From NCBI RefSeq assembly GCF_988243305.1, contig NZ_OZ547136.1: a DNA stretch of 64,000 bases, one strand, 5' to 3'. Positions 52,001-55,000 of the stretch are shown one piece after another (the stretch's first letter is position 1; every line of letters begins with the position of its first letter). Position numbers: made by a program.

Positions 52001-55000
52001 GATCTTGGCTTCTTACCTGGAGATATCGCAGAAAAGTTTGCTCCCTATTTTCGTCCGGTCTACGACGTGCTGGTCCGGCGCTTAGGGGCTTCCTTTATGC
52101 AGTACTGCCTGCGACCGGAAATAGGGAAGGTGGAAATTGCGCCGTTCGCCTATATGCGTGGACGTACCTTTGAAAATGCAGTCGTCATTCTTGACGAGGC
52201 GCAGAATGTGACTGCCGCGCAAATGAAAATGTTTTTAACCCGCCTCGGGGAGAACGTGACGGTTATCGTCAACGGTGATATCACGCAATGCGATTTGCCT
52301 CGCGGCGTGCGCTCCGGATTAAGTGACGCGCTGGAACGTTTCGAAGAAGATGAAATGGTCGGGATCGTCCGATTCGGTAAAGAGGATTGCGTACGTTCGG
52401 CACTTTGCCAACGTACGCTACATGCATACAGTTAAGTGTATTATCGGCGCAGAGCCCGGGCGAACCGGGCTTTGTTTTATTTCATTAACAGCAAAGACTT
52501 TCACTTCAGGTTAACGTTCTGGGGGGCGACTTTGAGCGTGTTGATAAGCTGAAATGAATTCTGGTTTAGATACTTTTACCAGGCATTTTTCGTCATAGCA
52601 CGCGACCAATGTAATGCCGCCAGCGCGGAGAGTTTTTTGCCTATCTTTTTCCAGCCATTCAACCTGTACAGGAGGTCTGGTGCCAATTTTGCGTATGAGG
52701 TTTAATCAACAATGGGCCAAAATTTGACTGACTGATTAACACCGAATATATTCTCCTGATTTTATTTTTTAGGGATAATATTAAAAATATAAGGTTAATC
52801 TTAATTAAATTTTTGGCTAATATTGTGTGTTGTTATTTTTTGTGGACGGCAAGCCGCAATGGCAAAATAGGTATGGTTGTAATAATCAAAACATGATACT
52901 AACTATATATAGATCGTTGAATTGTTGGCATGTAACTCGCTACAGCGAGTAGCGTTAGTAATGAAATATAATCAACATGGATAGGTGAAGATTAATTATG
53001 AGCTTTATGGTTTTTGTAACTTGTTTGACAATTGCATTTGTCGCCGGTTTTGCTGTTGCCAGAAAATTGACACTCCGAAAAGTTGCCTCATCGGTAATCA
53101 TCACTAGATCGCAACCAGTCCCTTCCTCTGCAACTTCCCCTGCTGCTAAGGCGTCGACAAGGAGCTATACACCGCAGAAAACCTATCGTGACTCTCGTTG
53201 GCAAGAACGAGATGAGTTGTTCCAGGGAATGGTTGCCGAAGGTATTTTATTGGAAGGAAAAGAGTGGTTAATTACGCGTTGTGAAAAAATTTATTTTGAT
53301 AATCTGGAGAAATGGTTTGGACATTCTTGTCATATCCATTGCCAGGTCTCTCTGGGGCGCTTGATCAACTTTCCAGAACAACCCGAGTTTAGCGAAGAAG
53401 AAAGAAAGCGTTTCTTTGCAATTTATAATGGAATGGCAATGGATTATGTTCTGGTTTCAAAGAAGAACAATAAAATAGTCTGTGTTATTGAGCTGGATGA
53501 GCCGAGTCATGAAAGGGCAGATCGCATTATTCGTGACCGTTGGTTGAATACGATTATGACTATTGCACGGGTGCCTTTTGTACGAGCTTCTGTCACTAAA
53601 TTGGATGAAATCCCTCCGGTCTGGGATACCCGTGACAAAATTCGCCCATTAGCCGCGGCGACAAAGGGTGAACCGTTGCATTAACTAAGTACCCCGGTCA
53701 GGGCTTCTCATCTCCCCCGGTGTGTGCAATATACGAAAAAAAAGCCCGTACCTTCGTACGAGCTCTTCTTTAAAGATGGCGGTGAGGGGGGATTGACTCG
53801 CTTCGCTCGCCCTGCGGGCAGCCCGCTCACTGCGTTCACGGTCTGTCCAACTGGCTGTCGCCAGTTGTCGAACCCCGGTCGGGGCTTCTCATCCCCCTGT
53901 GTGTGCAATATACGAAAAAAAAGCCCGTACCTTCGTACGAGCTCTTCTTTAAAGATGGCGGTGAGGGGGACCGCCTGAAATAAATCTGACTTAATCCAGG
54001 GGTGTTATATAATTTCATTATAAACAATGTATTACACTTTTTGTTGTCCGATATTATCTAATGTATTCTTAGTGAAGCGAGAGACTAATGGCATACTGGA
54101 TGGCATACCAGAGTGACGGGAATTAGCGTATGGCAGTATTGACGGATACGAAAGCAAGACATATCAAACCTGATGACAAACCATTGCCCCATGGGGGAAT
54201 TACCGGACTGACCCTTCATCCTTCTTCAGTAAAGGGGCGGGGGAAATGGGTTTTTCGTTATGTAAGTCCGGTGACACAAAAAAGACGTAATGCTGGATTG
54301 GGAACTTACCCAGAGGTCAGTATTGCTGAAGCTGCACGTACTGCCCGGATAATGCGAGAGCAACTTGCTGCAGGTGATGATCCTCTGGAGATTAAAAAGG
54401 CTGAATCTGAGAAAGTCGCTATCCCAACATTTGCCGATGCAGCCAGGCGTGTACATGCAGAACTGTCTCCTGGATGGGAAAATCCAAAGCATGTAAGGCA
54501 GTGGTTATCGACGCTTGAGAATTACGCGTTTCCTCAACTGGGAGCAAAAACGCTGGATTCGATTACGGCTGCGGACGTGGCAGAAACACTGCGTCCAGTC
54601 TGGTTAACCTTATCAGAAACGGCAAGCCGGGTTAAACAGCGCATTCATGTTGTTATGCAGTGGGGATGGGCGCACGGTTTTTGTGTAGCAAATCCTGTTG
54701 ATGTGGTTGACCATTTGCTTCCTCAGCAGACAAGAGGACGTGATGAACACCAACCCGCAATGCCCTGGAGGCAGTTACCGCTTTTTGTGGCGACCAGTGT
54801 GTATACCGATGAACCTTATAATGTTACCCGCGCACTGTTATTAATGGTGATACTTACAGCAACTCGCTCGGGCGAAGCCAGGGGAATGCGCTGGGCTGAA
54901 ATTGATTTTCATAAGCGGGTATGGACTATACCTGCAGAAAGAATGAAAGCTAGGCTACAGCATCGTGTTCCTTTATCCCGGCAGGCTATTTACATTCTGG

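What the first reader, a model, noticed from the sequence alone, without database searches (positions are those of the whole stretch)
53691..53969. Two ~100-bp direct repeats immediately upstream of the integrase
Copies at 53691-53790 and 53871-53969 are about 96 percent identical, separated by an 80-bp GC-rich spacer, and end about 160 bp before int. Each contains a short hairpin followed by an A8 run (a T8 run on the minus strand), and each ends with tggcggtgaggggg, whose reverse complement resembles the 3' end of a tRNA-Ser acceptor/T-arm. No complete tRNA is present. This may be a duplicated attachment-site remnant or a small repeated regulatory element at the island boundary.
Basis: seen in the sequence. 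Interest (0 to 1): 0.45.

Follow-up and report, generated by a model that had tools for sequence, protein, structure and literature searches.

The report
serX tRNA-linked repeats beside island junction
The two repeats are the ordinary, already catalogued "tRNA-linked repeat" array (rsX / RtT-like) that normally follows the E. coli serine tRNA gene serX; a genomic island inserted into serX has cut the array off from its tRNA, so only the right-hand 14 bases are an integration scar.

Summary
In detail: 53691-53790 and 53871-53969 are 95% identical direct repeats with a period of about 179 bp. Each carries a hairpin plus T8 and the last 14 nt of tRNA-Ser(GGA) on the minus strand.

Integration did not create the duplication. 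Read on the minus strand, this is the native 3' flank of serX: tRNA 3' end, intrinsic terminator, a ~120-nt structured RtT-like element ending in a copy of the tRNA 3' end, the terminator again, then a truncated unit.

- E. coli K-12 has the same array with no island. It holds three full units plus a partial one, the EcoGene TLRs rsX1-4.
- 401 E. coli genomes have the unoccupied site ghrA-serX-repeats-DUF2726-phoH, collinear with this window.
- The unit occurs in 4617 of 5426 complete E. coli genomes. NCBI's annotation pipeline (PGAP) labels it "RtT sRNA".
- Related units follow tRNA-Ser(GGA) or tRNA-Tyr genes in many Enterobacteriaceae genera.

A P4-type integrase island (int at 54130-55332) is inserted at the serX 3' end. 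In a close relative it spans about 82 kb and is flanked by the 14-bp repeat CCCCCTCACCGCCA. So 53956-53969 is the island junction core, while 53777-53790 is simply the 3' end of a TLR.

The feature is already known, its function is unknown, and interest is low.

The parts
53956..53969 (-). Last 14 nt of serX tRNA-Ser(GGA), CCCCCTCACCGCCA. This is the integration core at the int-proximal island junction; island DNA begins at 53970.
   Evidence: Identical to the 3' end of K-12 serX. In SW4848 the same 14 bp occur at serX and at this junction, about 82 kb apart. In empty-site genomes serX runs straight into 53955 and leftwards.
53915..53950 (-). Native intrinsic terminator of serX. The core stem is GCUCGUAC / GUACGGGC with loop GAAG, extended by A/U pairs and followed by U8 (53922-53915). 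It looks bidirectional.
   Evidence: Fold of -20.5 kcal/mol, z = -3.6. The same sequence lies directly after serX in K-12 and in strain elppa4. The + strand scan also flags it as terminator-like.
53777..53911 (-). Structured RtT-like core of the one complete tRNA-linked repeat (orthologue of K-12 rsX). It has a closing stem GGGGGAU/AUCCCCC and three arms, and its 3' end AAUCCCCCCUCACCGCCA copies the serX 3' end.
   Evidence: Rfam RF00391 RtT scores 43.5 bits against a gathering cut-off of 45, E = 4.9e-7. PGAP annotates 'RtT sRNA' at the equivalent position in other E. coli. Fold of -56 kcal/mol, z = -3.0. Covariation in the closing stem and hairpin 1. Aligns to K-12 rsX1-3.
53777..53955 (-). 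One full repeat period of 179 nt: terminator plus RtT-like element ending in the tRNA-like CCA.
   Evidence: Spacing of 179. Collinear with the ~181-nt K-12 units.
53736..53771 (-). Second copy of the terminator hairpin plus U8, following the TLR.
   Evidence: Sequence and fold identical to the first copy.
53691..53776 (-). Truncated second unit: terminator plus the first ~30 nt of the RtT-like element (GGGGGAGAUGAGAAGCCCUGACCGGGGU). The array ends at 53691, 6 nt from the DUF2726 stop codon.
   Evidence: Alignment with the K-12 and elppa4 units; sequence.
54130..55332 (+). Island integrase, a tyrosine recombinase with P4-type domain architecture.
   Evidence: Pfam Arm-DNA-bind_3, Phage_int_M and Phage_integrase. 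Annotated as a tyrosine-type recombinase in relatives.
52998..53684 (+). DUF2726 gene, a core-side neighbour of the array. It is not part of the island.
   Evidence: Pfam PF10881. It sits next to the array in empty-site genomes.

Best explanation
Read on the minus strand, 53691-53969 is what remains of the native 3' flank of the tRNA-Ser(GGA) gene serX. It is a short array of tRNA-linked repeats, known as TLRs in general, as rsX at this locus in EcoGene, and as the serX-linked branch of Rfam's RtT family.

Each ~180-bp period has three parts:
- the 3'-terminal 14-19 nt of the tRNA;
- an intrinsic terminator (hairpin plus U8);
- a ~120-nt structured element whose 3' end is again the tRNA 3' end.

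Shown here:
- The array pre-exists in unoccupied serX sites and in K-12.
- A P4-type integrase island is inserted in the serX 3' end. The 14-mer at 53956-53969 is therefore the island junction core, the one at 53777-53790 is a TLR 3' end, and serX itself now lies beyond the window.

Inferred:
- Copy number (1 full unit here, 3 in K-12, up to about 12 matching places per genome) changes by unequal recombination or slippage between units.
- The tRNA-identical 3' end is kept by concerted evolution with the adjacent tRNA gene.
- In the native arrangement the TLR would be transcribed only by read-through of the serX terminator. It would then be trimmed at its tRNA-like 3' end and stopped at the second terminator, as shown for the rrn TLRs that lie between dual terminators.
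- In this strain the array is cut off from the serX promoter, so it is probably silent. At most its hairpins act as bidirectional terminators between the DUF2726 gene and int.

No cellular function is known for tRNA-operon TLRs.
For: - K-12 has serX followed by three full ~181-bp units and one partial unit of the same sequence.
- PMC8144298 Table S1 names these rsX1-4, at 1096182-1096779 in U00096.2. My conversion to NC_000913.3 coordinates, from the known ~778-bp offset between the two versions (not tool-checked), puts them just downstream of serX. The same paper defines TLRs by 18-19 bp of 3'-end identity to the upstream tRNA or rRNA.
- A reconstructed empty site (serX joined to window 53955->53560) is collinear in 401 genomes, at up to 98.7% identity. 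Strain elppa4 shows ghrA-serX-repeats-DUF2726-phoH.
- The unit is found in 4617 of 5426 E. coli genomes, and PGAP labels it 'RtT sRNA'.
- Rfam RtT scores: window 43.5 bits; K-12 serX units 46.3, 46.3 and 36.1; tyrT units 133-137.
- The island in SW4848 runs from serX to this junction and is bounded by the 14-bp direct repeat.
- Across genera, 74 motif hits follow tRNA-Ser(GGA) and 71 follow tRNA-Tyr(GTA). The first unit starts about 65 nt after the tRNA, the median period is 176, and 86 of 148 units carry the exact 16-nt tRNA 3' end.
- The closing stem and hairpin 1 show compensatory changes.
Against: - The window's unit falls 1.5 bits below Rfam's gathering score.
- No expression data are available. 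A strong terminator precedes the element even in the native site, and the consensus scan found no promoter on the minus strand between int and the array. The transcription and processing steps are therefore by analogy only.
- The far end of the island, with serX, is outside the window and was seen only in a relative that is 98.9% identical across the junction.
- The recombination and gene-conversion mechanisms are inferred from the pattern, not observed.
Confidence: 0.92

Rival explanations
1. The duplication is a duplicated attachment site left by two successive or tandem integrations, or by integration plus partial excision, at serX.
For: Both copies carry the tRNA-Ser 3' end, and the right one abuts the integrase end of an island.
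Against: - Both copies and the 80-bp spacer exist with no island in 401 genomes of the same backbone, in K-12 and in other genera.
- The repeated unit of about 100 bp is far longer than the 14-bp core actually duplicated by the island.
- The spacer is the conserved RtT-like element, not island DNA.
Confidence: 0.03
2. The TLR's tRNA-like 3' ends serve as secondary or decoy attachment sites for serX-targeting integrases, so the array has a role in island traffic.
For: Each unit reproduces the 14-bp core, or 19 nt in K-12. The array sits at an integration hot spot, and its distal flank is variable (K-12 has pga/ycdU where the window has DUF2726).
Against: A synthetic junction of the TLR 3' end with the serX-proximal island end finds no genome among 5426 that covers 80% or more of it. 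Every match joins the island end to the true tRNA gene. In addition, the array's distal truncation points are not at the core.
Confidence: 0.04
3. It is a functional small-RNA gene (RtT sRNA, as annotated by PGAP) that still acts in this strain.
For: The structure is conserved with compensatory changes across genera and across the Tyr and Ser classes. The fold has z = -3.0. The rrn-linked TLRs are expressed and bind Hfq and CsrA (PMC8144298).
Against: - The original RtT phenotype was retracted, and tRNA-operon TLRs 'have no known function' (PMC8144298).
- A strain lacking all 22 TLRs, including rsX1-4, was constructed.
- Here the element is separated from the serX promoter by the island and preceded by a terminator, and no promoter-like site was found on the minus strand.
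- The tRNA-linked TLRs scored below 0.01 as CsrA binders.
Confidence: 0.12
4. It is a decayed tRNA-Ser pseudogene pair.
For: The unit contains GGGGTTCGA (the T-stem 5' strand plus half of the T loop) and AATCCCCCC..CCA (the other half plus the acceptor 3' strand) of serX.
Against: - ARAGORN and Rfam's tRNA model find nothing here.
- The interior is homologous to the tyrT-linked RtT units rather than to tRNA-Ser.
- There is no D arm or anticodon arm.
- The element is conserved as such across genera.
Confidence: 0.05

Closest known systems
E. coli tRNA-linked repeats (TLRs) at serX: rsX1-4 (Egan & Landy 1978; Rudd 1999; EcoGene; listed in PMC8144298 Table S1)
   Same: The sequence is the same, aligning unit for unit with K-12. 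The position directly 3' of serX is the same in empty-site genomes. The period is about 180 bp, and the 3' end copies the serX 3' end.
   Different: There is one full and one truncated unit here, against three full and one truncated in K-12. There is one C fewer in the C-run of the 3' end. The distal truncation point and the distal neighbour differ (DUF2726 instead of ycdU). The array is separated from serX by an island.
RtT RNA / the 178-bp x 3.14 repeats of the tyrT-tyrV operon (Rfam RF00391; Bosl & Kersten 1991)
   Same: - Shared 5' motif G(3-4)..GGAUGAGAA-stem-CGAcc-stem-GUUCGA.
- Shared CCCG.AGGG hairpin.
- Shared ..GAGU.AAUCC-[tRNA 3' end] tail.
- The closing stem and hairpin 1 covary with the local tRNA's T stem.
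- The tandem period is about 178-181.
   Different: - It ends in the tRNA-Ser 3' end, not the tRNA-Tyr one.
- The central region is not alignable.
- Each serX unit contains an intrinsic terminator, which is not visible in the tyrT units (read).
- The Rfam score is only borderline (43.5-46.3 bits against 133-137).
- No RNA product has been demonstrated for the serX units.
rrn-operon TLRs rrA/rrB/rrF between the dual terminators T1 and T2 (PMC8144298)
   Same: The layout is stable-RNA gene, terminator, TLR ending in a copy of the gene's 3' end, second terminator. This suggests expression by read-through and 3' processing at the repeat.
   Different: The sequence family is different (5S-linked). 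Those RNAs bind Hfq and CsrA, whereas the tRNA-linked TLRs were predicted not to bind CsrA.
attL/attR direct repeats of tRNA-integrated genomic islands with P4-type integrases
   Same: The 14-bp tRNA 3'-end core at 53956-53969 is exactly such a junction repeat.
   Different: The second copy at 53777-53790, and the ~85 bp of flanking similarity, are not produced by integration. They are present without any island.

Membership tests
tRNA-linked repeats (TLR; rsX at serX) | Lies immediately downstream of, and in the same orientation as, a tRNA or rRNA gene. | tested here: met
   In empty-site genomes and in K-12 the array starts at the serX CCA. In the window it is displaced only by the island insertion, as seen in SW4848.
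tRNA-linked repeats (TLR; rsX at serX) | 18-19 bp at the 3' end are identical to the 3' end of the upstream tRNA (PMC8144298). | tested here: met
   The window TLR ends AATCCCCCCTCACCGCCA, against AATCCCCCCCTCACCGCCA in serX. The two are identical except for a C-run one base shorter, with 15 contiguous identical nt. The K-12 units are identical over 19 nt.
tRNA-linked repeats (TLR; rsX at serX) | Orthology to the catalogued K-12 rsX1-4. | tested here: met
   Unit-for-unit alignment. Table S1 of PMC8144298 gives the rsX1-4 deletion coordinates as 1096182-1096779 in U00096.2. My own conversion, from the known ~778-bp offset to NC_000913.3 (not tool-checked), places them at about L002 2461-3058, just 3' of serX.
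Rfam RF00391 RtT RNA | Covariance-model score at or above the gathering threshold of 45 bits. | tested here: inconclusive
   The window unit scores 43.5 bits, E = 4.9e-7 over 801 nt. Orthologous K-12 units score 46.3, 46.3 and 36.1, and tyrT units 133-137. PGAP annotates the orthologous position as RtT sRNA in many genomes.
Rfam RF00391 RtT RNA | Conserved secondary structure supported by compensatory changes. | tested here: met
   RNAalifold was run on 40 units, Ser-linked and Tyr-linked. The closing stem and hairpin 1 each have two pairs with double-sided changes (GC/AU/UA) in 17-20 sequences. Caveat: the changes track three lineage or tRNA classes, so there are few independent events.
Rfam RF00391 RtT RNA | A discrete RNA released from the tRNA primary transcript. 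| not testable with these tools
   No transcript data are available. This has been shown only for tyrT (Bosl & Kersten 1991, as cited in PMC3318445 and PMC8144298).
Island attachment-site repeat (attL/attR core) | The same short sequence is present at both ends of the island and only once in the unoccupied site. | tested here: met
   This row concerns 53956-53969. CCCCCTCACCGCCA occurs at serX and at the int-proximal junction in SW4848, and the empty site has serX continuous with the flank.
Island attachment-site repeat (attL/attR core) | The second copy (53777-53790) owes its existence to integration. | tested here: not met
   It is present in empty sites and in K-12. No genome among 5426 has the island end joined to a TLR 3' end.
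Intrinsic (Rho-independent) terminator | A G+C-rich hairpin immediately followed by a U-run. | tested here: met
   A 9-bp core stem plus U8, at -20.5 kcal/mol, and the + strand was also flagged. Termination activity itself was not tested.
tRNA gene or pseudogene | A cloverleaf detectable by a tRNA finder or by Rfam's tRNA model. | tested here: not met
   ARAGORN finds 0 genes in the window. There is no RF00005 match in 53400-54200 even at E <= 10.

The most novel reading that the evidence does not exclude
RtT-type TLRs might be more than passive relics. Across genera they accompany only the class II tRNAs Tyr(GTA) and Ser(GGA). They carry both halves of the local tRNA's T arm, split by an ~80-nt insert, and they co-evolve with that tRNA. 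One reading is that they are maintained as a reservoir of spare 3' ends, or a recombination buffer, at tRNA genes that are integration hot spots. They could restore or protect the tRNA 3' end after faulty island excision, or alternatively act as processed RNAs that titrate tRNA 3'-processing enzymes. Under that reading, island-bearing strains like this one would be natural uncoupling mutants.
Probability: 0.06. Interest if true: 0.5.

Novelty: already known. Interest (0 to 1): 0.12.

Why it matters
The practical value is mainly for annotation.

- It fixes the true island boundary at 53969/53970, with a 14-bp core.
- It shows that the ~100-bp repeats should not be read as att duplications or as evidence of multiple integration events.
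- It warns that 'RtT sRNA' calls next to serX islands are orphaned tRNA-linked repeats.

More broadly, TLRs remain a 45-year-old family without a function. Strains in which an island separates the array from its tRNA promoter (365 genomes with this junction), set against 401 with the empty site, offer a ready-made natural comparison for anyone who wants to test whether serX TLRs are expressed or matter.

Tried and rejected
- **Tandem Repeats Finder** on 53500-54100 found nothing. With 1.55 copies the array is below its threshold, so the result is uninformative.
- **Rfam at gathering threshold** over the whole window missed the element. It appeared only in the E-value search.
- **Other weak Rfam hits** (MicC, Thr_leader and others) are simply the terminator hairpin and were rejected.
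- **The 84-aa GTG ORF** at 53724-53978 spans the repeats. I regarded it as spurious and did not search it.
- **TLR 3' ends as secondary att sites** was tested with a synthetic TLR::island junction. No genome among 5426 matched it.
- **Three literature searches** for RtT/serX were mostly noise. Bosl & Kersten 1991 (PMC329039) is not held, and the CoCoNuT preprint had no relevant text in its latest version. The decisive paper (PMC8144298) came from the phrase 'tRNA-linked repeat'.
- **The cross-genus scan** also returned chance matches in unrelated MAGs and three hits next to other tRNAs (Arg, Asp and one unassigned). I took these three to be spurious without inspecting them.
- **The minus-strand terminators** were not reported by the promoter/terminator scan, although they are obvious in the sequence and in the fold. 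I relied on the fold and on direct reading.
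Full report
**Observation**

The two copies are real. A global alignment of 53691-53790 against 53871-53969 gives 96 identical columns of 101. Within that, 78 nt are 99% identical without gaps, at a spacing of 179 bp. The 80-bp spacer is 65% G+C, against 50% for the window. The right copy ends 160 bp before the ATG of a 400-aa ORF (54130-55332) that carries the Arm-DNA-bind_3, Phage_int_M and Phage_integrase domains. No tRNA gene is found anywhere in the window.

**Reading the other strand**

On the minus strand each copy reads CCCCCTCACCGCCA, then UCUUUAAAGAAGAGCUCGUACGAAGGUACGGGCUUUUUUUU. 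The 14-mer is the exact 3' end of E. coli K-12 serX, tRNA-Ser(GGA). What follows is a canonical intrinsic terminator, at -20.5 kcal/mol and z = -3.6. The G+C-rich 'spacer', together with the left edge of the right copy and the 14-mer of the left copy (53777-53911), matches Rfam RF00391 (RtT RNA). It scores 43.5 bits, just under the 45-bit gathering score, with E = 4.9e-7. This stretch folds into a closing stem GGGGGAU/AUCCCCC with three arms, at -56 kcal/mol and z = -3.0.

**Genomic context**

The window is E. coli chromosome, running putA-putP-efeUOB-phoH-DUF2726 | repeats | int. NCBI's pipeline annotates 'RtT sRNA' at the equivalent position in many genomes. In L001, coordinates 12177-12313 correspond to window positions of about 53776-53912.

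**The array is native to serX**

In K-12, serX is followed directly by the same terminator and the same RtT-like element. The unit repeats three times with a period of about 181 bp, followed by a truncated fourth unit. Two of those units pass Rfam's RtT threshold at 46.3 bits.

The literature names these elements. 'tRNA-linked repeats' (TLRs) were first seen by Egan and Landy in 1978 at tyrT. Rudd (1999) catalogued 22 copies at ten K-12 loci. They are defined by 18-19 bp of 3'-end identity to the tRNA or rRNA gene immediately upstream (PMC8144298). Table S1 of that paper lists rsX1-4 at 1096182-1096779 in U00096.2. Using the known ~778-bp offset to NC_000913.3, which is my own arithmetic and not tool-checked, that places them as the array just 3' of serX. 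The feature in this window is therefore the rsX TLR array, with one complete unit (53777-53955) and one truncated unit (53691-53776).

**Integration did not create the duplication**

I joined K-12 serX to window 53955->53560 (minus strand) to rebuild the hypothetical unoccupied site. That sequence is found as one collinear piece in 401 E. coli genomes, at up to 98.7% identity. In strain elppa4 the order is csgG-ycdZYX-ghrA-serX-[repeats]-DUF2726-phoH-efeB, and the alignment is base-for-base. The RtT-like unit is present in 4617 of 5426 complete E. coli genomes, at 1 to 12 matching places per genome.

**What the island did**

In strain SW4848, which is 98.9% identical across the junction, serX lies about 82 kb away. 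The interval holds a mosaic island with CP4-like genes, restriction-modification genes, iro and afa remnants, IS elements and other cargo, and it ends with this integrase. The island is bounded by CCCCCTCACCGCCA at both ends. The island also supplies a new hairpin plus T-run directly after the serX CCA.

Window 53956-53969 is therefore the junction core, and island DNA starts at 53970. The other 14-mer (53777-53790) is the TLR's own 3' end. A synthetic junction of the TLR 3' end with the serX-proximal island end is covered at 80% or more by none of the 5426 genomes. All matches join the island end to the real tRNA gene. So there is no sign that TLR ends serve as secondary att sites, at least for this type of island end.

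**Family-level picture**

A scan of one genome per species with the conserved 5' motif GATGAGAA-N4-CGA-N4-GGTTCGA returned 120 loci, mostly Enterobacteriaceae.

- Of 180 motif hits, 74 lie downstream of tRNA-Ser(GGA) and 71 downstream of tRNA-Tyr(GTA).
- Most of the remaining hits lie at locus edges.
- The first unit starts a median of 65 nt after the tRNA.
- The median period is 176.
- 86 of 148 units carry the exact last 16 nt of the adjacent tRNA, including lineage-specific tRNA variants.

An RNAalifold analysis of 40 Ser-linked and Tyr-linked units keeps the closing stem and the first hairpin, with double-sided changes (GC/AU/UA) at two pairs each. These changes follow the T-stem sequence of the local tRNA. 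The unit contains xGGTTCGA (T-stem 5' strand plus half of the T loop) near its 5' end and AATCCx..CCA at its 3' end. It therefore resembles a tRNA 3' half with an ~80-nt insert in the T loop. This points to concerted evolution with the neighbouring tRNA gene, although the number of independent events is small.

**How it most likely works**

- **Shown:** the identity, position and pre-existence of the array, and the island junction.
- **Inferred, copy number:** copy number changes by unequal recombination between units.
- **Inferred, expression:** in the native site the TLR sits between two copies of the terminator, like the rrn TLRs rrA/B/F. Those are transcribed by read-through of T1 and processed at the repeated 3' end (PMC8144298). 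The serX TLR would be made the same way, at a low level.
- **Inferred, this strain:** the island separates the array from the serX promoter, and the consensus scan finds no promoter-like site on the minus strand between int and the array. The unit is probably silent. The palindromic A8-hairpin-T-rich modules may still terminate transcription in both directions between the DUF2726 gene and int.

No function is known for tRNA-operon TLRs. The phenotype once ascribed to RtT was retracted, and a strain lacking all 22 TLRs was built.

**Verdict**

The idea that the att site was duplicated is wrong. The element is an already known, catalogued repeat family, so novelty and interest are low.

Noticed in passing
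L007-L126 (cross-genus loci); window 53777-53911: RtT-type tRNA-linked repeats were found only behind two class II tRNAs, Tyr(GTA) and Ser(GGA). Their closing stem and first hairpin covary with the T stem of the local tRNA. Each unit contains both halves of that tRNA's T arm, separated by about 80 nt.
   Followed up: partly
L017:94-218, L035:141-265, L046:4-128 versus most Ser-linked units: Ser-linked units come in two interior subtypes, GACAACTGGCG...GAGTCAATCC and GACTGAACG...GAGTGATATCC. These may correspond to the two tRNA-Ser(GGA) loci, serX and serW.
   Followed up: no
L024, L039, L041, L109, L114, L117, L118 (terminal units): In several genera the last unit of an array ends AATCCCCCCC|GGTGC... 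It keeps the T-stem strand but lacks the acceptor 3' strand and the CCA.
   Followed up: no
window 53685-53695 versus L002 ~2461-2470: The distal end of the array is truncated at different points and has different neighbours. In K-12 it breaks at CACACACCGGG|T and is followed by ycdU, ymdE and an IS3 element. In the window it breaks at GACCGGGGT|A, 6 nt from the DUF2726 stop codon. The region between phoH and the array is therefore variable.
   Followed up: partly
L006:31008-31050 (SW4848, serX-proximal island end): The island brings its own hairpin plus T-run (AAGCGCATGTTA..TAACATGCGCTTTTTT) immediately after the serX CCA. This replaces the native terminator that was left behind at window 53915-53950.
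   Followed up: partly
window 53986-54013 (+): This is the only sigma-70-like site in 53400-54300: CTGACT-16-TATAAT, just inside the island end and about 115 bp upstream of int. It is a candidate int promoter.
   Followed up: no
window 52237-52430 (-): A full-length Rfam match to Ysr251 (192.8 bits) lies on the strand opposite the 3' end of the phoH ORF (51371-52435).
   Followed up: no
window 17829-18251 (+): An Rfam match to the cspA thermoregulator (157 bits), presumably the leader and coding region of a cspA-family cold-shock gene.
   Followed up: no
window 55519-57336 (-): A 605-aa ORF next to int has no Pfam match. It is annotated as hypothetical in relatives and is conserved at this position in the island.
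   Followed up: no
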